A DNA stretch of 64,000 bases from a virus, in UHGV virus genome UHGV-0222911. The stretch is one strand, 5' to 3'. A model generated the notes under the pieces. That model was given only the letters and a program-made list of their open reading frames with translations. It had not been told where the DNA came from and searched no databases. The position numbers and the translations under genes are program-made. Below, in pieces: positions 31,697 through 55,569 of the stretch (position 1 is its first letter; every line of letters starts with the position of its first letter).

Positions 31697-32737
31697 ATGG
31701 AGAAGTACACGCTAACAAAACTTCCCGATTCAGTTACACATGTCTTTATTGACTCTGATAGTATTGCCTATAAAGGTGCTTGTGTAGTTGAGAAAGCAAA
31801 ATATAAGTATGTCAATAAACTCACAGCAGAAGAATCTGAACCATTTGATAATGCAAAAGATGCGGCAAGATGGTTAGCAGACCAGAGAATCCTTGTGGAA
31901 GAACTTGGCCTGACATTTGATGAAGATGAATGGGAAAGACAGACTTGGAAAGAAGCTAAGAGTGAAAAAGAAGCTATCATGGCTACTCAGCAGGTTCTTC
32001 AGGAATGGCTTAAGGTTGTTGGTAAAGAAAGAACTTGGGTAGGTTACTTAACAGAGAAGGGTGTACATAAACATAAAGACATTAAAGGTCTTGAGCACCA
32101 ATATCAAGGTAACCGTAAAGAGGCTGTCACACCAACACACTTAGTTGCTTGTCGCGAATATCTTCTGTCAAGACCAGAGTTTAAACTCTTAAAGGGTGGC
32201 TTCGAAGCCGATTCCATCGTAATTGCTAAAGCTGAAAAGATGGGTAAGAAGGCTGCTCTTATGAGTATTGACAAAGACCTTCGACAAGCTGAAGGTACTT
32301 ATTGTATTGATATGACTTATGAAAAGTCACCACTAATTTTTATTGCTGACAATAATGTTGGTGATATCTGGGATTGTCCTATCAAATCAAAACCAAAAGC
32401 TGCAAAAACAGTTGGTGTAGGTTTTAAATTTTTGTGTTATCAGGCTGTTGCTGGAGATAATGCAGACAACTACTTCGGCCTTAAAGGTGCTGGAAAAGTA
32501 GCTGTGATGAATGCTTTAGAGGGTAAAGAGACCTATAAAGAGTGTCTTGATGCTATCTATGAACTCTATGCTAAAAAAGAGTCTTACACCTATGTGTCAT
32601 GGGATGGACAGACTGTTACCAAAACACCATTAGAGTTAATGGAACAACATTTCTGGATAGCATATCAAGAGAGAAATCCAAAAGATAATTTCTCTTTTAA
32701 GAAATATAATTGGGAGCCGTGTATGAATGAAGATTAA
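31697..32737 (+). CDS. 5'-3' exonuclease / flap endonuclease
   Basis: N-terminal HVFIDSDSIAYKGA and H3TH-like AGDNADNYFGLKGAGKVA (cf. GDxSDNIPGVxGIGxKTA). Confidence 0.7.
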   Translation: MEKYTLTKLPDSVTHVFIDSDSIAYKGACVVEKAKYKYVNKLTAEESEPFDNAKDAARWLADQRILVEELGLTFDEDEWERQTWKEAKSEKEAIMATQQVLQEWLKVVGKERTWVGYLTEKGVHKHKDIKGLEHQYQGNRKEAVTPTHLVACREYLLSRPEFKLLKGGFEADSIVIAKAEKMGKKAALMSIDKDLRQAEGTYCIDMTYEKSPLIFIADNNVGDIWDCPIKSKPKAAKTVGVGFKFLCYQAVAGDNADNYFGLKGAGKVAVMNALEGKETYKECLDAIYELYAKKESYTYVSWDGQTVTKTPLELMEQHFWIAYQERNPKDNFSFKKYNWEPCMNED

Positions 32738-33224
32738 AGGATTTGGCAATTGTCCCACCTATGGTCATTGGGTATCTTTGTGTGGGGAAGTTGACCCCAC
32801 TAAACATTTTGGTTTTGTCTATTTAGTATACTGTAAGAAAACCGGACAATATTATATCGGAAAGAAACAACTTAATAGTGTGACCAAAAGAAAAGTTGCT
32901 GGCAAGACTCGGAAGAAGGTAGTCACTAAGGAAAGTGATTGGATGACTTATGAGACTTCTTCTGAGTATATTAAAAAAGATATTGAGAGCTTTGGAAAAG
33001 AATTTTTTGACTTTTACATTATCCAGACCTACTGCACAAAAGGTGGGCTAGTTTATGGTGAAGCAAACCTTCAACATAAATTCGATGTAATGACAAAAAG
33101 GATTGACTCTAAGCTCAGACTCTTCTACAATGCCAATATTGCAGCAATTAAGTTTATTACTAAAGAAACTTATGAAGATGCTGAAAAAAGAATCCATAAG
33201 GTAATGAAAGCAAATTGTGCTTGA
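32727..33224 (+). CDS. GIY-YIG endonuclease-like protein
   Basis: 165 aa; FVYLVYCKKTGQYYIGKK resembles GIY-x(10)-YIG motif. Confidence 0.35.
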   Translation: MKIKGFGNCPTYGHWVSLCGEVDPTKHFGFVYLVYCKKTGQYYIGKKQLNSVTKRKVAGKTRKKVVTKESDWMTYETSSEYIKKDIESFGKEFFDFYIIQTYCTKGGLVYGEANLQHKFDVMTKRIDSKLRLFYNANIAAIKFITKETYEDAEKRIHKVMKANCA

Positions 33225-39007: not shown

Positions 39008-41152
39008 ATGAACAAAGTACAGATTATTAAAAAGAATGGCTCACTTGAAGAACCTGATATCAAAAAAGTTTTAGCAGCAGTAACTAAGTCAGCTAACAGG
39101 GTTGGGTATAGAGAACTTCCACCAGATGTTACCCAAGCTCTTGAGTCAGCATTTATGAGGATTCTGGTAAAGTCCACTAAGCAGAATAATTTACTAATTT
39201 CGGTAAATGATATTCACAGTATTGTTGAGGGTGCTTTGGCAGAAGTCAATCACGAGATTTATGAGTCTTACTCAACATATAGAAATTACCGTAAAGAGGT
39301 TGCTCAAAATTGGGATGAACTCTACCAGAAGACTAAAGATACACTCTTCTTAGGTGACCGTGAAAATGCTAACTTTGACAGCAGTTTAATTTCTACGAAA
39401 GGTTCAATTATCCGTGGTTACCTGACTAAAGAAATCTTTAAACAGTATCATCTAACACCAGAGGAACTTGAAGCCATTGAGAAAGGCTTTATCTATATCC
39501 ATGATTTAAGAGACCTGATTTTTGGTGGTATTAACTGTTGCCTGTTTGACATTGGTAAAGTACTAAAAGGTGGCTTTGAAATGTCCGGCATTGAGTACTG
39601 TGAACCTAAATCTGTACTGTCAGCGTTGCAGGTTATTGGTGACGTAGTACTTTCAGCAACTGCACAGCAATTTGGTGGTTTTACTTTAGCAGAGATTGAT
39701 AAGGTACTTGTACCGTATGCTAAGAAGTCTCTACGCTATCATGCTGAGAAAGCATCATCTTATGGTATTCCTAAAGAGCATTACCACAATTATGTAATGG
39801 AGCAGTTACAAATTGAACTGACTCAAGGTTTTCAGTCACTTGAGATGAAACTAAATACCGTACCTTGTAGCCGTGGTGATTTTGCATTCACAACTTTAAC
39901 ATTTGGTTTACTTGACTCAGATATGTCTAATGAGGATAATCGACTACAATACATGATTGCAAGTACTCTCCTAGATGTTCGTATGAATGGACAAGGCAAG
40001 AGTAAAAAACCTGTTGTATTCCCTAAACTGGTTTATATTTATGACCAGAAGAGACATGATGAGAATATCTGTCAAGGTCACCTGTACAGTAAAGCTATTG
40101 AGTGTTGCTCTAAAGCAATGTACCCAGATTTCTTAAGTGTGTCTGGTCATGGTGCTGTAGCAGAGGCTTTTGAGCGTTCTGGTAAGGTAATTTCACCGAT
40201 GGGTTGCAGAGCCTTCTTATCTCCATATTTTAATGAGGATGGGGAAGAGTTTTACGTTGGTCGTGCTAACATTGGTGCTGTATCTTTGAACTTGCCAATG
40301 ATTTACCAGTACTCTAAAGAGAATGGTTTAGATTTCTGGAAAGAGCTTGATAAGTACCTAGAGATGATTCGCAACTTCCACAAGAAACGCTACGAAATGA
40401 TTGCTAATATGCCAGCAAGTTCTAACCCTCTTGCGTTCACACAAGGTGGTCTGTACAAAGGTACTAAGAAACCTACTGATAAGGTTGGTTGGGATATCGT
40501 GAAGTCCTTCACAGCTTCTTTTGGGGTTACTGCACTTGATGAGTTATCTGTTCTTGCTGAAGGTAAACGACTTCATGAAGTTGGAAGCTATAGTTTTGCA
40601 TATGATGTTCTGGCATACATCAACATGAAAACCGAAGAGTTTAAAAATGAAGATGGCTTCTTATATGCCGTCTATGGTACTCCAGCAGAATCACTTTGTG
40701 GAACTCAACTAAAACAGTTCAGAGATATGTTTGGCGTTATCAAAGGCGTTTCTGACAAGGAATACTTTACAAACAGTTTCCATATGAATGTTGCAGCAGA
40801 CATCTCACCATTTGAGAAGCAGGACTTAGAAGAGCCATTCTTCCATATCTGTAGAGGCGGTAGAATCCAGTATGTAAGAGTAGCTAACCCAGAAAACTTA
40901 TCAGCACTTAAAAGTTGTATTACAAGAGGGATGTTGAAAGGTTTCTATCAGGGACTTAACTTTGACTTAGCAATCTGTGAACATTGTGGTAACAGACCAA
41001 AGGCTGATGTTGAAGAATGTGAGGTTTGCCATTCACACGATATCTCTGTGATTAACAGGGTGTGCGGGTACTTGTCATTCACAAAAATTAAAGGTCAGTC
41101 TCGAATGAATGACGCTAAGATGGCAGAAATTAAGGATAGGGTTTCTATGTAG
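39008..41152 (+). CDS. nrdD: anaerobic ribonucleoside-triphosphate reductase
   Basis: 714 aa; C-terminal Cys cluster CEHCGN...CEVC and glycyl-radical motif RVCGYL. Confidence 0.9.
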   Translation: MNKVQIIKKNGSLEEPDIKKVLAAVTKSANRVGYRELPPDVTQALESAFMRILVKSTKQNNLLISVNDIHSIVEGALAEVNHEIYESYSTYRNYRKEVAQNWDELYQKTKDTLFLGDRENANFDSSLISTKGSIIRGYLTKEIFKQYHLTPEELEAIEKGFIYIHDLRDLIFGGINCCLFDIGKVLKGGFEMSGIEYCEPKSVLSALQVIGDVVLSATAQQFGGFTLAEIDKVLVPYAKKSLRYHAEKASSYGIPKEHYHNYVMEQLQIELTQGFQSLEMKLNTVPCSRGDFAFTTLTFGLLDSDMSNEDNRLQYMIASTLLDVRMNGQGKSKKPVVFPKLVYIYDQKRHDENICQGHLYSKAIECCSKAMYPDFLSVSGHGAVAEAFERSGKVISPMGCRAFLSPYFNEDGEEFYVGRANIGAVSLNLPMIYQYSKENGLDFWKELDKYLEMIRNFHKKRYEMIANMPASSNPLAFTQGGLYKGTKKPTDKVGWDIVKSFTASFGVTALDELSVLAEGKRLHEVGSYSFAYDVLAYINMKTEEFKNEDGFLYAVYGTPAESLCGTQLKQFRDMFGVIKGVSDKEYFTNSFHMNVAADISPFEKQDLEEPFFHICRGGRIQYVRVANPENLSALKSCITRGMLKGFYQGLNFDLAICEHCGNRPKADVEECEVCHSHDISVINRVCGYLSFTKIKGQSRMNDAKMAEIKDRVSM

Positions 41153-41159
41153 CATACAA

Positions 41160-41717
41160 ATGAATTACGAACTAATATATAATGCAATTATTAAGAAGGC
41201 ACATTCTGAAAGGGGTGTGCCTCTTACATACTACAAATGTCAAGGTAAGGGTTATGAAAGACACCATATCATACCAGTATGTCTAGGTGGAGATAAAATT
41301 AGTGGAGATAATATTGCTTTGCTTACACCTAGAGAGCATTATATAGCTCATAAATTACTGGTTAAGATGTATCCAAACAATCATAAGTTATGGTTTGCAT
41401 GGAACAGGTTAGCTCATGATGGCCTAGATAGGAAAATATCATCCAGAGACTATGAAAAGGTAAGAGCTTTGAACTCGAAAGCTTTATCTATTGTGAATAA
41501 AGGTAGGGTTTTCACTGAAGAACATCGAAGACGATTAGGAGAATCTCAAATAGGCAATACAAAATCAAAAGGTTGTAAAAGGTCTATAGAAACAAGGAAG
41601 AAGATGTCAGAAGCCGGAAAAAAGCCAAAGAAAAAGAAAACTTGCCCTCATTGTGGTATGACTGGTGGTGCTGGTAACATGACTCGATATCATTTTGACA
41701 ATTGTAAGAAAAAATAA
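41160..41717 (+). CDS. HNH homing endonuclease
   Basis: HNH motif ERHHIIPVCLGGDKISGDNIALLTPREHYIAH; inserted between nrdD and nrdG; start at internal Met after nrdD stop. Confidence 0.7.
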   Translation: MNYELIYNAIIKKAHSERGVPLTYYKCQGKGYERHHIIPVCLGGDKISGDNIALLTPREHYIAHKLLVKMYPNNHKLWFAWNRLAHDGLDRKISSRDYEKVRALNSKALSIVNKGRVFTEEHRRRLGESQIGNTKSKGCKRSIETRKKMSEAGKKPKKKKTCPHCGMTGGAGNMTRYHFDNCKKK

Positions 41718-43724: not shown

Positions 43725-43745
43725 ACAGATACTATAAGGGAACTG

Positions 43746-43770
43746 TAAAGGTTCCCTTTTTATTTTGGAG
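43746..43770 (+). terminator. hairpin + T-run
   Basis: GGGAAC tgtaaag GTTCCC followed by TTTTTATTTT. Confidence 0.55.
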
Positions 43771-43775
43771 ATAAC

Positions 43776-44291
43776 ATGTATCTGACAAATCTGAAACGTT
43801 CGGCTGCAATGTCAGTGCTAAGACTCAGCTTTGAGGAACGTCAAGAGTTCATTGACTCCCACCAATACGACCATTCTAACTCCAATCACATGATTCTCTG
43901 GAATCGTGGCAGTACTCGTGAAAGAGCACTATTCCGCTATTACCCACACTACACCATAGACAACCTGTATGAATGTTTTGTTGTGAAGAACACTATCACA
44001 GTACTCAACAAACTTTGCAGATACACAGGTAACCAGTCCTTCACATTAGGTCACCACAAACCTGTTACAAAAGGTGGTGAACATCACTGTGCAAACTGGT
44101 TTATCCAGACTAAACTTGATAACCAGAAGCAAGGTGATAGCCTTTTAAGCACCCCTAAGATGACCTATGAAGAGCAAGAGAAATATATCAAAAATAATAT
44201 GCCAGATGTGCTTGACAACAACTATACAGATTTGGCAATATCTCTCCTGTTGAAGTTCGAGACAGTTTATAGGGCAACTTATAATGGCTAA
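43776..44291 (+). CDS. HNH-like nuclease domain protein candidate
   Basis: 171 aa; GHHKPVTKGGEHHCANWFIQTKLDNQKQG resembles an HNH core. Confidence 0.35.
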   Translation: MYLTNLKRSAAMSVLRLSFEERQEFIDSHQYDHSNSNHMILWNRGSTRERALFRYYPHYTIDNLYECFVVKNTITVLNKLCRYTGNQSFTLGHHKPVTKGGEHHCANWFIQTKLDNQKQGDSLLSTPKMTYEEQEKYIKNNMPDVLDNNYTDLAISLLLKFETVYRATYNG

Positions 44292-44562
44292 AGAAAAGTG
44301 GGAGATTTTACCATTAGTTAGCGAAGGTGGTAATGGTTGTGAGATGTACATGATACGAGGCCATGTTCCAGAACCAATTGCACTTGAGATGATAAACAAT
44401 TTTACAGATGGTTCTTACAAAGACTTAGGCGAACCAACTGTCAAGCAACAATGGGTTAAACCTGTACCAGACAGCACAGGCAACTGTAGTGTACTTTATC
44501 ACGTTGTGGACCCTGCAAAATGCAAATCTGCAATGGCAGTAACAAACGTAACTTTTGATTGA
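44284..44562 (+). CDS. hypothetical protein
   Basis: 92 aa ORF. Confidence 0.35.
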   Translation: MAKEKWEILPLVSEGGNGCEMYMIRGHVPEPIALEMINNFTDGSYKDLGEPTVKQQWVKPVPDSTGNCSVLYHVVDPAKCKSAMAVTNVTFD

Positions 44563-44574
44563 GAGAGAAAAACT

Positions 44575-45456
44575 ATGAAAACATCTATCCGTGTTACAGT
44601 TCATTCACCAACTAAAGGAACTCATGAAGAAGAGTTTAACATCATCCAATTTCCTTCTGGTGAGATTGGTGGACACTTTTCGCCAGAGTTTGTTGATTTT
44701 ACTGCTTATGCAGCATCATCCATCAACAATGTGATTATGATTGTAAAAGGTTATGATAAGGACACATTGTTTGCTGTGGCACTTGCTAAAGAAGCAATTG
44801 ATGATTTAATTCCTCACGATTATGCTTTAAAGACTGTCATCTTTTACTACTTACCAAATGCACGATATGACCGTCACATGTTTAAAGGCGACGCAGCAGC
44901 TTTAAAGGTTTTTGCTAAACAGATTAATGCAATGGGGTTTGGCGCAGTCTGTGCAGTTGACCCTCACAGCTATGTACCAGATAACCTGTTTAACTGCTTC
45001 CAGAGTATTCCTCAAAAGGAAATTGCAGTCCACTATGCAAATGACCCACTGATTGATTACTTAGTAGCCCCAGATGCAGGTGCTGCTAAGAAGATTGCAG
45101 AGACTGCTAAAGAGGTGGATAAACCATACATCACAATGTCTAAAGTGCGTAACCTTAAGACTGGTGAAATTACTGGTATGCGAATCCTTGATGATGTTGA
45201 TTTGACAGATAAAACCGTTATGATTCTGGATGATATCTGTGATGGTGGTCGAACCTTCATAGAAGCAGCGAAACATCTTCGTGAAGCAGGTGCAAAACGT
45301 GTGGAACTTTATGTAACACATGGTATCTTCTCTAAAGATGTTGAAAACCTTCTTGACAATGGTATCGACCATATTTACACTACAAACTCTTTAGGCGAAG
45401 CTAAAGACCGTGGCTTAACACATTACAGTCAAGTTACTGTAGCAAACCTTGATTGA
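44575..45456 (+). CDS. ribose-phosphate pyrophosphokinase-like enzyme (Prs family; possibly ADP-ribose pyrophosphokinase of an NAD+ reconstitution pathway)
   Basis: 293 aa; PRPP-synthetase-type motif VMILDDICDGGRTF; directly upstream of NAMPT-like gene. Confidence 0.7.
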   Translation: MKTSIRVTVHSPTKGTHEEEFNIIQFPSGEIGGHFSPEFVDFTAYAASSINNVIMIVKGYDKDTLFAVALAKEAIDDLIPHDYALKTVIFYYLPNARYDRHMFKGDAAALKVFAKQINAMGFGAVCAVDPHSYVPDNLFNCFQSIPQKEIAVHYANDPLIDYLVAPDAGAAKKIAETAKEVDKPYITMSKVRNLKTGEITGMRILDDVDLTDKTVMILDDICDGGRTFIEAAKHLREAGAKRVELYVTHGIFSKDVENLLDNGIDHIYTTNSLGEAKDRGLTHYSQVTVANLD

Positions 45457-45501
45457 AAGTTTATAGGGGCTTAAAAGCCCCATTTTGAGAGAGATTAAAA
45501 G

Positions 45502-47283
45502 ATGACTAAATCACTTTATGCAGTACCAGCAGGTTTAAATGCAGATGCTTACAAATCTGGTCATGTTTACCAGTATCCTAGCGCAACAGAGTACTTGATG
45601 TTCAATCTGACACCACGTAGCGACAAATGGTTTAACAGCCCTTTAGCAATTGACGGTGTAGTGGCTTTTGGTATTCAACGTTTTGTTAAAGATTACTTGA
45701 TAGACCACTGGAATGCCACTTTCTTTGAACGTGATAAAAAAGAAGCCATTGATGAAATCTTAGAAGTCATGAATGGTGTTCTGGGTAAAGATGCTATCGG
45801 TCGAGAGCATTGGGAAGCACTTCACGACTTAGGTTATCTACCAGTTGAAGTATACGCTGTAGAAGAAGGCACAGTTGTTCCAATGCGTGTCCCGATGATT
45901 GTCTTTCATAACACTGTTTCAGGTTTTCATTGGGTAGCAGGTTATCTGGAAGATGCTTTCTCTGCTGAAATTTGGAAGGCTTGCACCATTGCAACTATTG
46001 CATTGCATTACAAACGCATCTGTAAGAAGTGGGCTGACCTTACTTGTGACAATGACTTACATTTACCTTATCAGTGCCATGATTTTGCTATGCGTGGTAT
46101 GTCCGGCTTTACTGATGACGCATTTAACGCTGTAGGTCACTTAACCAGCTTTAAAGGGACTGATAGCTTCCCTGCTGTATACACGGCTAAACGAATCTAT
46201 GGACAGTCCTACCCAATCTCTGATATTGGTAGCTCTGTACCAGCCACTGAGCACTCTGTAATGTGTGCAAACATTGCTTGGGAAGGTGGTAACGAGTTAA
46301 TTGAAGAAGAAAGACGCTTTAAAGGTGAGTTACAAACCTTCCGTCGTTTCTTAACAGAAACTTACCCAACTGGTATTGCAAGTGTTGTTTCAGATACTTA
46401 TAACTTCTGGAGAACTGTATCAGTCATATTACCAGAACTCCGTAAAGAGATTATGGAACGTAATGGCAAACTGGTAATTCGTCCTGATTCTGGAGACCCT
46501 GTACATATTGTCACAGGATACAAAGCAATCCATTTAGAGTGTGCTAAAAAGGCTTATTATGAACACTTAAGCAAGCTGGAAGCCAGTGACACAATGTTGA
46601 ATGCTGTTCTGAACATGAAGCTTGAAAACATCAATTATGGTATTGCTGGATGGCTACTGTCAGAAGGCTACGAAATGGTTGTTGACAGAGAAGACTTTGA
46701 AGTTGCTGATACAGTGCTGTTGAAAAACGCTTATATGGTTGGTTCTGCAAACGTTGTAACACGTCCTGTAGCGGAGATTGATGGAGCTATCAAGACACTG
46801 TATAACATCTTTGGAGGAACTATCAACTCTAAAGGTTTTAAAGTACTGGATGAGCATATCGGGCTTATTTATGGCGACTCTATCACGTTGGAACGTGCAA
46901 ACGAAATACTGAAGCGTTTGTATGAAATGGGTTTTGCAAGCTCTAACGTAGTGTTTGGTGTAGGTTCTTACACTTACCAGTACATGACTCGTGACACCTT
47001 TGCATTTGCTGTCAAAGCAACTCTTGGAAGCATTGGTGGTAAAGAGATTATGCTTGCAAAAGACCCTAAAACAGATAGTGGTGTTAAGAAGTCTGCTTTT
47101 GGTGGTGTAGCACCTATGTGGGATGGTGAAAATCTGAAAGCTGTAGATGGCTATGGGTTCCAGAGCTTTGCAGATGCACTTGAACACCCAGCTTGTGCTT
47201 TACGTCTAGTCTTTAGCGACTCTGAGCAGTTCGGCTACACGACTCTTGGTGATATTCGAAATAATATTGACAAGCAGCTTTAA
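45502..47283 (+). CDS. nicotinamide phosphoribosyltransferase-like enzyme (NadV/NAMPT family)
   Basis: 593 aa; N-terminal NADAYKSGHVYQYP matches NAMPT signature (DSYKVTHYKQYP). Confidence 0.8.
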   Translation: MTKSLYAVPAGLNADAYKSGHVYQYPSATEYLMFNLTPRSDKWFNSPLAIDGVVAFGIQRFVKDYLIDHWNATFFERDKKEAIDEILEVMNGVLGKDAIGREHWEALHDLGYLPVEVYAVEEGTVVPMRVPMIVFHNTVSGFHWVAGYLEDAFSAEIWKACTIATIALHYKRICKKWADLTCDNDLHLPYQCHDFAMRGMSGFTDDAFNAVGHLTSFKGTDSFPAVYTAKRIYGQSYPISDIGSSVPATEHSVMCANIAWEGGNELIEEERRFKGELQTFRRFLTETYPTGIASVVSDTYNFWRTVSVILPELRKEIMERNGKLVIRPDSGDPVHIVTGYKAIHLECAKKAYYEHLSKLEASDTMLNAVLNMKLENINYGIAGWLLSEGYEMVVDREDFEVADTVLLKNAYMVGSANVVTRPVAEIDGAIKTLYNIFGGTINSKGFKVLDEHIGLIYGDSITLERANEILKRLYEMGFASSNVVFGVGSYTYQYMTRDTFAFAVKATLGSIGGKEIMLAKDPKTDSGVKKSAFGGVAPMWDGENLKAVDGYGFQSFADALEHPACALRLVFSDSEQFGYTTLGDIRNNIDKQL

Positions 47284-47297
47284 AAGTATATGATAAG

Positions 47298-47320
47298 AGG
47301 CTCCTACGGGAGCCTTTTTA
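47298..47320 (+). terminator. hairpin + T-run
   Basis: AGGCTCC tacg GGAGCCT followed by TTTTT. Confidence 0.55.
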
Positions 47321-47336
47321 ATTTCTGGAGAAGATT

Positions 47337-54783: not shown

Positions 54784-55569
54784 ATGGGTATTGTAAAAAT
54801 CATCAATGGCGATATCTTTGCCGCATTTGATAAAGGTAAGTTTGACATCATTGGTCACGGTTGCAACTGTATGAATTTAATGGGCGCAGGTATCGCTGAC
54901 AAGATTTCTAAACTTTACCCAAAAGCATATGAGACCGATACAGAGGTTTATCTATATGCAGGTGGCATAGGTCACAAACCTTGTGAAAATTTACTGGGTA
55001 ATTTCTCTGTAGCACGTTTAAAACAAGGTCGTATAGCTAACCTTTACACTCAGCTTAAGACTGGTAAAGATGCCCGATACAGTGCTTTAGAATCATCTTT
55101 GAAACAGCTTAACAGATACTGTGAAGTTAATCAGTTGAGGAAAGTTGGTTTACCTATGATTGGTGCAGGTATCGGTGGGTTGGACCCTCAAGCCGTCACA
55201 GTTATCATCAATCAGGTGATGAAGAGTGTAGATGTTTATCTATATGTCTATGAAGGAGAGATGTACCACAAGTTACGCTCAGGTTGGAAGAACTACTGTG
55301 AACCAGAATACTTTGCAGGTGTAGTTGTGTTCACGGATAATGCAGTTACCCTCTTCAGACGAAGAAAAGGTAAGATACATCAAAGTAACCCTCCGGTTGA
55401 GAAGATGTCTCTAAGTAACGCTCTAGTTACCCACCTGTCGAAGAGCAATCACAGGATAGCCGTAACATTTGGCAGTGATGCAGATACATATATTTATGCA
55501 AGAACTGATGAGGATATCGAGACGGTCTTCTCTTCACCGGAAGTTACCTTCTTAGACGCAAAGAACTAA
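54784..55569 (+). CDS. macro-domain (ADP-ribose binding/processing) protein candidate
   Basis: 261 aa; N-terminal IINGDIFAAF...DIIGHGCNCMNLMGAGIADKI resembles macro-domain core. Confidence 0.5.
   Translation: MGIVKIINGDIFAAFDKGKFDIIGHGCNCMNLMGAGIADKISKLYPKAYETDTEVYLYAGGIGHKPCENLLGNFSVARLKQGRIANLYTQLKTGKDARYSALESSLKQLNRYCEVNQLRKVGLPMIGAGIGGLDPQAVTVIINQVMKSVDVYLYVYEGEMYHKLRSGWKNYCEPEYFAGVVVFTDNAVTLFRRRKGKIHQSNPPVEKMSLSNALVTHLSKSNHRIAVTFGSDADTYIYARTDEDIETVFSSPEVTFLDAKN

What the first reader, a model, noticed from the sequence alone, without database searches (positions are those of the whole stretch)
44575..47283. Prs-like + NAMPT-like gene pair without a visible NMN adenylyltransferase
The adjacent genes carry a PRPP-synthetase-type fold (VMILDDICDGGRTF) and an NAMPT signature (DAYKSGHVYQYP). 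Phage-encoded pairs of this kind have been described as an NAD+ reconstitution pathway in which the Prs homologue pyrophosphorylates ADP-ribose and the NAMPT homologue condenses the product with nicotinamide, restoring NAD+ depleted by abortive-infection defences. No NMNAT-like gene is evident in this window, which fits that two-enzyme route better than classical salvage. The NAMPT-like protein is about 100 aa longer than typical NAMPTs.
Basis: partly seen in the sequence, partly recalled or inferred. Interest (0 to 1): 0.6.

Follow-up and report, generated by a model that had tools for sequence, protein, structure and literature searches.

The report
Known phage NAD+ rebuilding operon (NARP1)
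The two genes are the already described phage pathway NARP1, which rebuilds NAD+ from ADP-ribose and nicotinamide to defeat NAD+-depleting bacterial defences; they sit in a close relative of the phage in which that pathway was discovered, so the finding is correct but not new.

Summary
Window 44575-45456 (+) encodes a 293-aa Prs-like protein and 45502-47283 (+) a 593-aa NAMPT-like protein, and both quoted motifs are present. The window is a Felixounavirus, collinear with Escherichia phage Bas63 (JohannRWettstein). NARP1 was discovered in Bas63 by deleting genes bas63_0079 and bas63_0080. The window proteins are positional orthologues of those two genes: 78% identity for Adps and 97% for Namat, with identical lengths.

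The NAMPT-like protein carries the published Namat "selectivity clamp" (GSYTYQYMTRD, with K42-W43 in the loop) and all catalytic-core residues. Its best solved-structure match is SpβL1 Namat. The Prs-like protein keeps the Adps catalytic residues, scores about 110 bits against the characterised ICP1 Adps versus 49 bits against E. coli Prs, and fails every NCBIfam equivalog cut-off for a true Prs.

No NMNAT, NadR, Nudix or RyR domain was found in the window. The roughly 100 extra residues come mainly from a confidently folded ~88-aa α/β subdomain inserted after the RPDSGDP strand. Bas63 has the same insertion, and it has no recognisable fold relative.

Side observations are a distal Poa1p/Adpp-like Macro protein at 54784-55569, two allele classes of the Adps N-terminal domain, and the uncharacterised insertion.

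The parts
44575..45456 (+). adps: ADP-ribose pyrophosphokinase (Prs-like), 293 aa
   Evidence: ORF; PF00156/PF14572, phrog_619 and TIGR01251 hits. 78% identical to Bas63_0079 with no gaps. Conserved residues, ICP1 numbering to window: R87->R97, H121->H131, D161->D167, K185->K190, D212/D213->D219/D220, C215->C222, D216->D223, F221->F228. phmmer bit scores: 109 vs ICP1 Adps, 119 vs GRLPWR Adps, 49 vs E. coli Prs.
45502..47283 (+). namat: nicotinamide ADP-ribose transferase (NAMPT-like), 593 aa
   Evidence: ORF; PF04095 and phrog_448 hits. 97% identical to Bas63_0080. Best PDB sequence hit is 9W5W/9W5X SpβL1 Namat, E 5e-127. AF2 model has pLDDT 93.5, and its best Foldseek hit is 9W5X with TM 0.95 on the target. 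Clamp helix motif GSYTYQYMTRD at aa 488-498, clamp loop K42-W43, and core residues D15, Y17, F195, R198, D221, H251, R327, D329.
46519..46782 (+). Inserted α/β subdomain within Namat (aa ~340-427), the main cause of the extra length
45466..45481 (+). Intercistronic stem-loop GGGGCTTAAAAGCCCC followed by ATTTTG, between adps and namat
   Evidence: Sequence read. RNAfold of the 45-nt spacer gives a 6-bp GC stem, -12.6 kcal/mol for the whole spacer. Function is inferred only: RNA stability or partial attenuation.
47295..47318 (+). Intrinsic-terminator-like hairpin plus T-run, 12 nt after the namat stop codon; likely 3' end of the unit
   Evidence: 10-bp stem with 5 GC pairs, then a T-run. Sequence. 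Fold of -17.2 kcal/mol.
43736..43758 (+). Upstream terminator-like hairpin; likely 5' boundary of a unit holding two small ORFs of unknown function (43776-44291, 44284-44562), adps and namat
   Evidence: The two small ORFs correspond to bas63_0077 and bas63_0078 and have no significant Pfam domain. Their membership of the functional system is not shown.

Best explanation
This is a NARP1 operon (NAD+ reconstitution pathway 1) of a Felixounavirus. When a bacterial abortive-infection system such as SIR2-HerA/Nezha, Thoeris type I, DSR, SEFIR or Kongming cleaves NAD+ into ADP-ribose and nicotinamide, the pathway runs in two steps. First, the Prs-like enzyme Adps (44575-45456) uses ATP to transfer a pyrophosphate onto the 1'' hydroxyl of the distal ribose of ADP-ribose, giving ADPR-PP and AMP. 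Second, the NAMPT-like enzyme Namat (45502-47283) displaces that pyrophosphate with nicotinamide and regenerates NAD+ directly, with no NMN intermediate and no NMN adenylyltransferase.

What is shown here: orthology, synteny and conservation of catalytic and specificity residues.

What is shown in the literature for the Bas63 orthologues: the in vivo anti-defence phenotype, restoration of NAD+ levels, the ADPR-PP intermediate, and independence from host pncC and nadR.

What is inferred for this window: that its proteins have the same activities. The enzymology itself was done on the SpβL1, ICP1 and DyoEdafos homologues.
For: 1. The window is collinear with Bas63 positions 9,097-72,727 at about 84-95% nucleotide identity. 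It is about 96% identical to many Felixounavirus records over the 4-kb locus.

2. The window proteins match bas63_0079 and bas63_0080 in position and length, at 78% and 97% identity.

3. Osterman et al. (10.1101/2024.02.11.579819) reported the following. Deleting genes 79-80 of Bas63 lowers plaquing about 20-fold on SIR2-HerA cells. The wild-type phage restores NAD+. ADPR-PP (m/z 720.010) appears only when wild-type phage infects cells carrying the defence. The effect persists in a ΔpncCΔnadR host.

4. [quoted passage not shown] True Nampt enzymes differ: RB43 has GGGLLQEVTRD and H. ducreyi NadV has GAQTYQRNTRD. The clamp-loop residues K42-W43 fit the Lys-then-stacking-residue arrangement described for Bas63.

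5. All NAM/NMN-site residues are conserved.

6. The Adps catalytic Lys (K190) and acceptor-site residues are conserved, and the donor loop reads DDICDG. Every Prs equivalog model scores far below its cut-off, for example 104.7 against 296.

7. The AF2 model superposes best on the SpβL1 Namat crystal structures.

8. No NMNAT or NadR was found in the window or in the whole Bas63 genome.
Against: No biochemistry exists for this exact pair. The Bas63 proteins themselves 'did not purify well', so the in vitro reactions rest on homologues with 31-46% identity.

The Adps N-terminal domain differs markedly from the Bas63 allele, with about 62-80% nucleotide identity over 44597-45096.

The two aromatic residues that hold the ADPR adenine in ICP1 Adps (F18 and F92) align with H17 and M102 here. 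Bas63 has the same residues, and the alignment in this region is uncertain.

Namat also retains PRPP-dependent NMN synthesis in vitro, so some classical activity cannot be excluded.

The solved-structure library used here held no Adps entry (best hit was an archaeal PRPS). No model of Adps was made either, so no structural comparison of Adps was possible.
Confidence: 0.93

Rival explanations
1. Classical salvage: the pair is a true PRPP synthetase plus a true Nampt that together make NMN, and host NadR or PncC/NadD finishes NAD+ synthesis.
For: The Pfam, PHROG and NCBIfam names all say Prs and NAMPT/NAPRT. Namat homologues can make NMN from PRPP in vitro at about half the rate of human Nampt (PMC12774641).
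Against: Bas63 overcame SIR2-HerA in a ΔpncCΔnadR host, and SpβL1 Adps gave no product in the assay for the Prs reaction. When offered both substrates, Namat made only NAD+. The window protein has the Namat motif, not the Nampt motif. Adps scores below all Prs equivalog cut-offs.
Confidence: 0.04
2. Nucleotide-supply module: the Prs-like enzyme raises PRPP for phage nucleotide synthesis, and the pair is housekeeping metabolism rather than counter-defence.
For: The genes lie in the nucleotide-metabolism block, with NrdA/B, glutaredoxin, NrdD/G, dNMP kinase, thymidylate synthase and DHFR in the same window.
Against: In Bas63, NAD+ levels differed between the wild type and the Δ79-80 mutant only when the defence was present, and the pathway metabolites appeared only then. 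In 97% of Adps-clade genes a Namat gene is the neighbour, which is not expected for a PRPP supplier.
Confidence: 0.02
3. Extended pathway (NARP1-AP-like): the two genes work together with the distal Macro-domain protein at 54784-55569, which would convert ADPR-1''-phosphate (the aRES product) into ADPR for Adps. This would add to NARP1, not replace it.
For: The Macro domain is present (PF01661). The protein is 27% identical over 164 aligned columns (pairwise E 4e-13) to GRLPWR gp179, which sits between Adps and Namat exactly as the characterised Adpp of Vibrio phage Gary does. There are weak Poa1p hits (6LFQ, E 0.02) and TARG1 hits (9e-6). The published survey looked only two genes either side of NARP1, so a distal copy would have been missed.
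Against: The closest relatives outside the Ounavirinae are Tk.4-type Macro proteins of T-even-like phages (about 35% identity); I did not check those genomes for NARP1. So the family is not specific to NARP1. The gene is 7.5 kb and about 17 genes downstream of the operon. The protein also has an extra C-terminal extension of roughly 105 aa of unknown function. No catalytic-residue test was possible.
Confidence: 0.2

Closest known systems
NARP1 of Escherichia phage Bas63 / JohannRWettstein (bas63_0079 Adps, bas63_0080 Namat; Osterman et al. 2024)
   Same: Same genus (Felixounavirus). Same gene order and flanks: NrdG, small ORFs, adps, namat, then rIIA. Identical protein lengths of 293 and 593 aa. 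Namat is 97% identical, including the inserted subdomain. All mapped catalytic and specificity residues are identical.
   Different: The Adps N-terminal domain is a different allele, 62-80% nucleotide identity over 44597-45096 and 78% protein identity overall. The window lacks bas63_0081, the small ORF just downstream of namat in Bas63.
SpβL1 Namat (PDB 9W5W/9W5X; PMC12774641)
   Same: Same fold (TM 0.95 on the target), 46% identity, the same clamp-helix motif type (GSFTYQYNTRD against GSYTYQYMTRD) and the same catalytic core.
   Different: SpβL1 stacks R40 on the adenine, whereas the window has K42-W43. The window protein carries a ~14-aa insertion near aa 258-272 and an ~88-aa subdomain at aa 340-427 that SpβL1 lacks.
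Vibrio phage ICP1 Adps (structures and kinetics in PMC13586617)
   Same: PRPS-like two-domain enzyme. Conserved K185, R87, H121, D161, D212, D213, C215, D216 and F221 equivalents. Loss of the C-terminal PRPS helices.
   Different: Only 31% identity. The adenine-contacting F18, F92 and F223 are H17, M102 and E230 in the window. The donor loop reads DGGRT rather than DGAAS.
NARP2 (KVP40 Nampt plus the bifunctional Nmnat NatV) and other phage Nampt enzymes such as RB43
   Same: Homologous NAMPT fold with the same NAM-site residues.
   Different: About 30% identity to RB43 Nampt. The Nampt-type motif is GGGLLQEVTRD. NARP2 needs an Nmnat, which is absent here, and its Nampt has no adjacent Adps.
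NARP1-AP (Adps-Adpp-Namat of Vibrio phage Gary and relatives such as GRLPWR)
   Same: Same Adps and Namat families (119 and 329 bits against GRLPWR). A homologous Macro protein exists in the window.
   Different: Here the Macro gene is not in the operon but 7.5 kb downstream. It is only 27% identical and is 261 aa long against 158 aa.
Cellular PRPP synthetase (E. coli Prs) and Nampt (human NAMPT, H. ducreyi NadV 9KE8)
   Same: Ancestral folds and core chemistry.
   Different: 23% identity to E. coli Prs and only 49 bits. The C-terminal regulatory helices are absent. The specificity motif differs from NadV (GAQTYQRNTRD).

Membership tests
NARP1 (Adps + Namat) | Adjacent, co-oriented adps and namat genes | tested here: met
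   44575-45456 and 45502-47283, both on the + strand, with a 45-nt spacer. Osterman et al. found a Namat neighbour for 97% of Adps-clade genes.
NARP1 (Adps + Namat) | The Prs-like protein belongs to the Adps clade rather than to cellular Prs | tested here: met
   78% identical to the founding Adps, Bas63_0079. phmmer bit scores: 109-119 vs characterised or syntenic Adps (ICP1, GRLPWR), 89 vs Bacillus phage Skywalker Adps, and 49 vs E. coli Prs. All Prs equivalog models score below cut-off. No full phylogeny was built.
NARP1 (Adps + Namat) | Adps catalytic lysine on the β-hairpin, plus the acceptor residues and the DDICDG donor loop (PMC13586617) | tested here: met
   K190, R97, H131, D167, D219, D220, C222 and D223 are present. 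The adenine-contact residues F18 and F92 are not conserved (H17 and M102, as in Bas63).
NARP1 (Adps + Namat) | [quoted passage not shown] | tested here: met
   GSYTYQYMTRD at aa 488-498. The Nampt controls RB43 and HdNadV lack the aromatic residues.
NARP1 (Adps + Namat) | Namat clamp loop supplying a stacking residue (Arg, or Lys/Tyr followed by the stacking residue) | tested here: met
   K42-W43 aligns with SpβL1 R40-V41 and is identical to Bas63. Stacking itself was not modelled with a ligand.
NARP1 (Adps + Namat) | Nampt-like catalytic core (Phe/Tyr sandwich, Asp, catalytic His, Arg/Asp for ribose) | tested here: met
   D15, Y17, F195, R198, D221, H251, R327, D329 and G458-D459 are present.
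NARP1 (Adps + Namat) | Enzymatic activities: ADPR + ATP gives ADPR-PP, and ADPR-PP + nicotinamide gives NAD+ | not testable with these tools
   Shown in vitro for the SpβL1, ICP1 and DyoEdafos homologues, and in vivo by metabolomics for Bas63.
NARP1 (Adps + Namat) | Counter-defence phenotype against NAD+-depleting systems | not testable with these tools
   Shown for the Bas63 orthologues on SIR2-HerA.
NARP2 (Nampt + Nmnat) | An NMN adenylyltransferase gene in the same genome | tested here: not met
   No NadD- or NadR-like hit in the window (best E 0.4) or in the six-frame translation of Bas63 (none at E<=1). No CTP_transf_like or Nudix domain in the Pfam scan.
NARP2 (Nampt + Nmnat) | Nampt-type (non-aromatic) motif, with no Adps neighbour | tested here: not met
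   The motif is Namat-type and an Adps gene is adjacent.
NARP3 (PnuC + NadR-like) | A NadR-like bifunctional enzyme and a PnuC transporter | tested here: not met
   No NadR homologue was found. No matching Pfam domain was found. The definition of NARP3 is taken from PMC13464706.
NARP1-AP (NARP1 + Adpp phosphatase) | A Macro-domain ADPR-1''-P phosphatase encoded within or next to the NARP1 operon | tested here: not met
   The four flanking small ORFs have no Macro domain. The only Macro protein lies at 54784-55569, 7.5 kb downstream.
NARP1-AP (NARP1 + Adpp phosphatase) | A homologue of Adpp/Poa1p anywhere in the genome | tested here: inconclusive
   27% identity (pairwise E 4e-13) to the operon-embedded Macro protein of GRLPWR. 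The Poa1p hit is weak (E 0.02). The window protein is closer to T4-type Tk.4 proteins.
RyDEP-extended NARP1 | A RyR-domain glycosidase in the NARP1 locus | tested here: not met
   No RyR domain was found in the flanks or in the scanned ORFs.

The most novel reading that the evidence does not exclude
Felixounaviruses may run an unrecognised extended form of NARP1. In this reading, the distal Poa1p/Tk.4-like Macro protein (54784-55569) supplies ADPR-1''-phosphate phosphatase activity in trans, giving resistance to aRES. The lineage-specific ~88-aa subdomain inserted next to the Namat active-site strand would be a functional add-on, for example for regulation, for contact with Adps, or for evading a host inhibitor. 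The two allele classes of the Adps N-terminal domain would reflect an ongoing arms race. None of these three points is addressed in the papers read here. The published Adpp survey scanned only two genes either side of NARP1.
Probability: 0.15. Interest if true: 0.45.

Novelty: already known. Interest (0 to 1): 0.15.

Why it matters
NARP1 is a broad-spectrum phage counter-defence that neutralises the NADase-based immune systems tested so far. Knowing that a phage carries it helps predict host range and helps in choosing therapeutic phages. For this window the value is correct annotation: public records still call the genes 'ribose-phosphate pyrophosphokinase' and 'nicotinamide/nicotinate phosphoribosyltransferase', which implies the wrong chemistry. 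The case adds nothing conceptually new, because the founding experiments were done on a phage of the same genus with a 97%-identical Namat. The only leads beyond the literature are the uncharacterised Namat insertion, the dimorphic Adps N-terminal domain, and the distal Macro protein.

Tried and rejected
1. I searched for an NMNAT in three ways. tblastn and phmmer with E. coli NadD and NadR against the window gave nothing better than E = 0.4. phmmer with the same queries against the six-frame translation of Bas63 gave no hit at E<=1. A Pfam scan of 54 concatenated window ORFs found nothing. This also rejects NARP2 and NARP3.

2. I looked for the known NARP1 accessory genes (Macro/Adpp, RyR/RyDEP) in the four ORFs flanking the operon. 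There were none. The 77-aa core of the Namat insertion also had no Pfam hit on its own.

4. No structure comparison was possible for Adps. The PDB copy returned only cellular PRPS enzymes (best 4TWB), so the ICP1 Adps structures are evidently not in it. I used residue mapping from the paper instead.

5. A first guess at the Bas63 accession (MZ501111) returned a different BASEL phage. The correct record is MZ501086.

6. I considered whether the extra length reflects a gene fusion or a mis-called start. This was rejected: the extra residues are internal, have high model confidence, and are conserved in homologues down to about 45% identity.
Full report
**Observation.** The quoted peptides are real. 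VMILDDICDGGRTF is residues 215-228 of the first protein and DAYKSGHVYQYP is residues 15-26 of the second.

The first protein matches the phosphoribosyltransferase and PRPP-synthetase domains (PF00156 at 1.2e-11, PF14572 at 4.4e-10), phrog_619 (1.7e-97) and TIGR01251 (3.3e-36). The second matches PF04095 (2.9e-34), NAMPT_N, phrog_448 (6e-201) and NF006629 (6e-140).

**Where the window comes from.** The 4 kb around the genes is about 96-97% identical to dozens of Felixounavirus genomes from E. coli, Salmonella and Shigella. The first 25 kb behaves the same way. The window is collinear with positions 9,097-72,727 of Escherichia phage JohannRWettstein (Bas63, MZ501086; Ounavirinae, Felixounavirus) at roughly 84-95% nucleotide identity.

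**Identity with the founding NARP1 example.** Bas63 genes 79 and 80 are the operon in which Osterman et al. discovered NAD+ reconstitution pathway 1 (bioRxiv 10.1101/2024.02.11.579819). They reported four main results:
- Deleting the two genes reduced plaquing about 20-fold on cells expressing SIR2-HerA.
- Wild-type phage restored NAD+.
- A new metabolite, ADPR-pyrophosphate (m/z 720.010), appeared only when wild-type phage infected cells carrying the defence.
- The effect persisted in a ΔpncCΔnadR host, which excludes the classical NMN route.

The window proteins occupy the same position between the NrdG block and rIIA. They have the same lengths (293 and 593 aa) and are 78% and 97% identical to Bas63_0079 and Bas63_0080, with no gaps.

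**Residue-level tests for Namat.** The crystallographic study of SpβL1 Namat (PMC12774641) defines two things. One is a Nampt-like core: D13', Y15', F189, R192, D215, a catalytic His, R306 and D308. The other is an adenine 'selectivity clamp' made of two elements:
- a variable loop supplying Arg, or Lys/Tyr followed by the stacking residue, as in Bas63.

In the window these are D15, Y17, F195, R198, D221, H251, R327 and D329, with GSYTYQYMTRD at 488-498 and K42-W43 in the loop. All are identical to Bas63.

Controls lack the aromatic residues. The Nampt-type enzyme of phage RB43 reads GGGLLQEVTRD. The solved bacterial Nampt, H. ducreyi NadV, reads GAQTYQRNTRD.

By sequence, the best solved structure is SpβL1 Namat 9W5W/9W5X (E 5e-127), against 2e-50 for Xanthomonas Nampt and about 1e-40 for mammalian NAMPT. 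An AlphaFold2 model built on 63 homologues (pLDDT 93.5, pTM 0.92) superposes best on 9W5X, with TM 0.95 normalised to the target. H. ducreyi NadV comes next, then mammalian NAMPT.

**Residue-level tests for Adps.** The ICP1 Adps study (PMC13586617) identifies the catalytic Lys185 on a β-hairpin, the acceptor residues R87, H121, D161, D212 and D213, and a remodelled donor 'PP loop' beginning with C215-D216. The window has K190, R97, H131, D167, D219, D220, C222 and D223, and lacks the C-terminal PRPS helices.

The aromatic residues that hold the ADPR adenine in ICP1 (F18, F92) align with H17 and M102 here. Bas63 has the same residues. The N-terminal alignment is weak, so I treat this as lineage variation, not as a failed test.

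Quantitatively, the window Adps scores 109 bits against ICP1 Adps and 119 against the Adps of Vibrio phage GRLPWR, but only 49 against E. coli Prs. It falls far below every NCBIfam equivalog cut-off for genuine ribose-phosphate diphosphokinases, for example 104.7 against 296. The PDB copy available here contained no Adps entry (best hit was an archaeal PRPS). No structural comparison was therefore possible for this enzyme.

**Absence of an adenylyltransferase.**
- E. coli NadD and NadR found nothing better than E = 0.4 in the window.
- They found no hit at E<=1 in the six-frame translation of the whole Bas63 genome.
- A Pfam scan of 54 ORFs from 14.2 to 64 kb found thymidylate synthase, DHFR, DNA ligase, dNMP kinase, NrdB, glutaredoxin, NrdG, two homing-endonuclease-type domains and a Macro domain. 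It found no CTP_transf_like, Nudix, NadR-type or RyR domain.

This excludes NARP2 (Nampt + Nmnat) and NARP3 (PnuC + NadR-like). It also agrees with the published statement that no phage was found to encode both NARP1 and NARP2.

**Why the protein is about 100 aa longer.** Relative to the short Namat forms (SpβL1, ICP1 and the bacterial homologues of 495-497 aa), the window protein has two insertions:
- about 14 extra residues near aa 258-272;
- a 97-residue segment where the short forms have 21-25, directly after the RPDSGDP strand that carries R327 and D329.

Homologous insertions occur in the long-form (580-610 aa) homologues, which include Ounavirinae phages, down to about 45% identity. Bacillus phages such as Skywalker carry an insertion of unrelated sequence at the same site. 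The site is therefore a hotspot for decoration. Bas63 Namat has the same insertion and works in vivo, so it does not conflict with NARP1 function. Its role is unknown, and the papers I read do not discuss it (no occurrence of 'insertion' in PMC12774641).

**Operon anatomy.**
- Both genes are preceded by the same GAGAGAGA Shine-Dalgarno-like element.
- The 45-nt spacer holds a GC-rich stem-loop (GGGGCTTAAAAGCCCC, 45466-45481).
- A strong terminator-like hairpin with a T-run follows the namat stop codon (47295-47318).
- Another terminator-like hairpin lies at 43736-43758, upstream of two small ORFs of unknown function (43776-44291 and 44284-44562), which may share the transcript.
- Promoter-like matches are not informative here: 28 were found against 16 expected.

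**Mechanism and confidence.** The most likely mechanism is the published one. Adps pyrophosphorylates the ADP-ribose released by host NADases, and Namat condenses ADPR-PP with nicotinamide to give NAD+ directly. Orthology, synteny and signature residues are shown here. The in vivo phenotype is shown for the 78%/97%-identical orthologues. The enzymology is shown for more distant homologues and inferred for this pair. Confidence is 0.93. The classical Prs + Nampt reading and a nucleotide-supply reading are each contradicted by the Bas63 genetics and metabolomics and by the specificity motif.

**Side observations.**
1. ORF 54784-55569 (261 aa; the counterpart of bas63_0095, 'putative phosphatase') has an N-terminal Macro domain. 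It is 27% identical (pairwise E 4e-13) to GRLPWR gp179, which sits between Adps and Namat. That is the position of Adpp, the ADPR-1''-phosphate phosphatase that extends NARP1 to defeat aRES in Vibrio phage Gary. The published survey scanned only two genes either side of NARP1, so distal copies like this one were not assessed. However, outside the Ounavirinae the window protein is closest to the Tk.4-type Macro proteins of T-even-like phages (about 35%), and its PDB hits are weak (TARG1 at 9e-6, Poa1p at 0.02). A trans-acting Adpp role is only a hypothesis.
2. Nucleotide identity to Bas63 drops to 62-80% across 44597-45096 (the Adps N-terminal domain), between flanks at 87-98%. Across phage records this domain is bimodal: 156 records at 90% or more, 97 at 60-80%, and none between. 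That indicates two allele classes exchanged by recombination.
3. The window and Bas63 differ in mobile endonuclease content around nrdD, and the small ORF downstream of namat in Bas63 is absent from the window.

**Novelty and score.** The system is already known, and this instance belongs to the same genus as the type example. Near-identical sequences are in public records (99.3% for Namat in phage AYO145A), although they are annotated with the misleading ancestral names. Interest is low (0.15). The residual value lies in the three uncharacterised details above.

Noticed in passing
window 54784-55569 (+): A 261-aa protein with an N-terminal Macro domain (PF01661) and a C-terminal extension of roughly 105 aa of unknown function; it is the counterpart of bas63_0095 'putative phosphatase'. 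It is 27% identical to the Macro protein embedded between Adps and Namat in Vibrio phage GRLPWR (the Adpp position in NARP1-AP). It is closer (about 35%) to the T4-type Tk.4 Macro proteins. It could feed ADPR into NARP1 from ADPR-1''-P, but this is untested.
   Followed up: partly
window 44597-45096 (Adps N-terminal domain): Nucleotide identity to Bas63 falls locally to 62-80%, between flanks at 87-98%. tblastn of Adps aa 1-180 is bimodal across phage records: 156 at 90% or more, 97 at 60-80%, none at 80-90%. This indicates two allele classes of this domain, probably exchanged by recombination.
   Followed up: partly
[not shown]
   Followed up: yes
window 47297-47336, against L004 25509-25853: The window lacks the ~345-nt ORF bas63_0081 that follows namat in Bas63. 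The indel begins just after the terminator-like hairpin.
   Followed up: no
window 39008-41152 (nrdD) and 41109-41717; 32727-33224: Mobile endonuclease content differs from Bas63. Bas63 nrdD is interrupted by a ~740-nt element carrying a homing endonuclease (bas63_0068), which the window lacks. The window instead has an HNH/NUMOD3-type ORF (41109-41717) after nrdD that Bas63 lacks. A SegE-like GIY-YIG ORF lies at 32727-33224.
   Followed up: partly
proteins P0069-P0120; no window coordinates: Enterobacterial genomes (Klebsiella, Cronobacter, Kluyvera, Phytobacter, Kosakonia; contigs up to 6.3 Mb) encode 495-497-aa homologues, 45-48% identical, that carry the Namat-type motif GS[YF]TYQYNTRD. 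This fits the reported bacterial NARP1 homologues. Their genomic context was not examined.
   Followed up: no
window 45466-45481: A GC-rich stem-loop (GGGGCTTAAAAGCCCC followed by ATTTTG) lies in the 45-nt spacer between adps and namat. It may be an RNA stability element or a partial attenuator that sets the ratio of the two enzymes.
   Followed up: no
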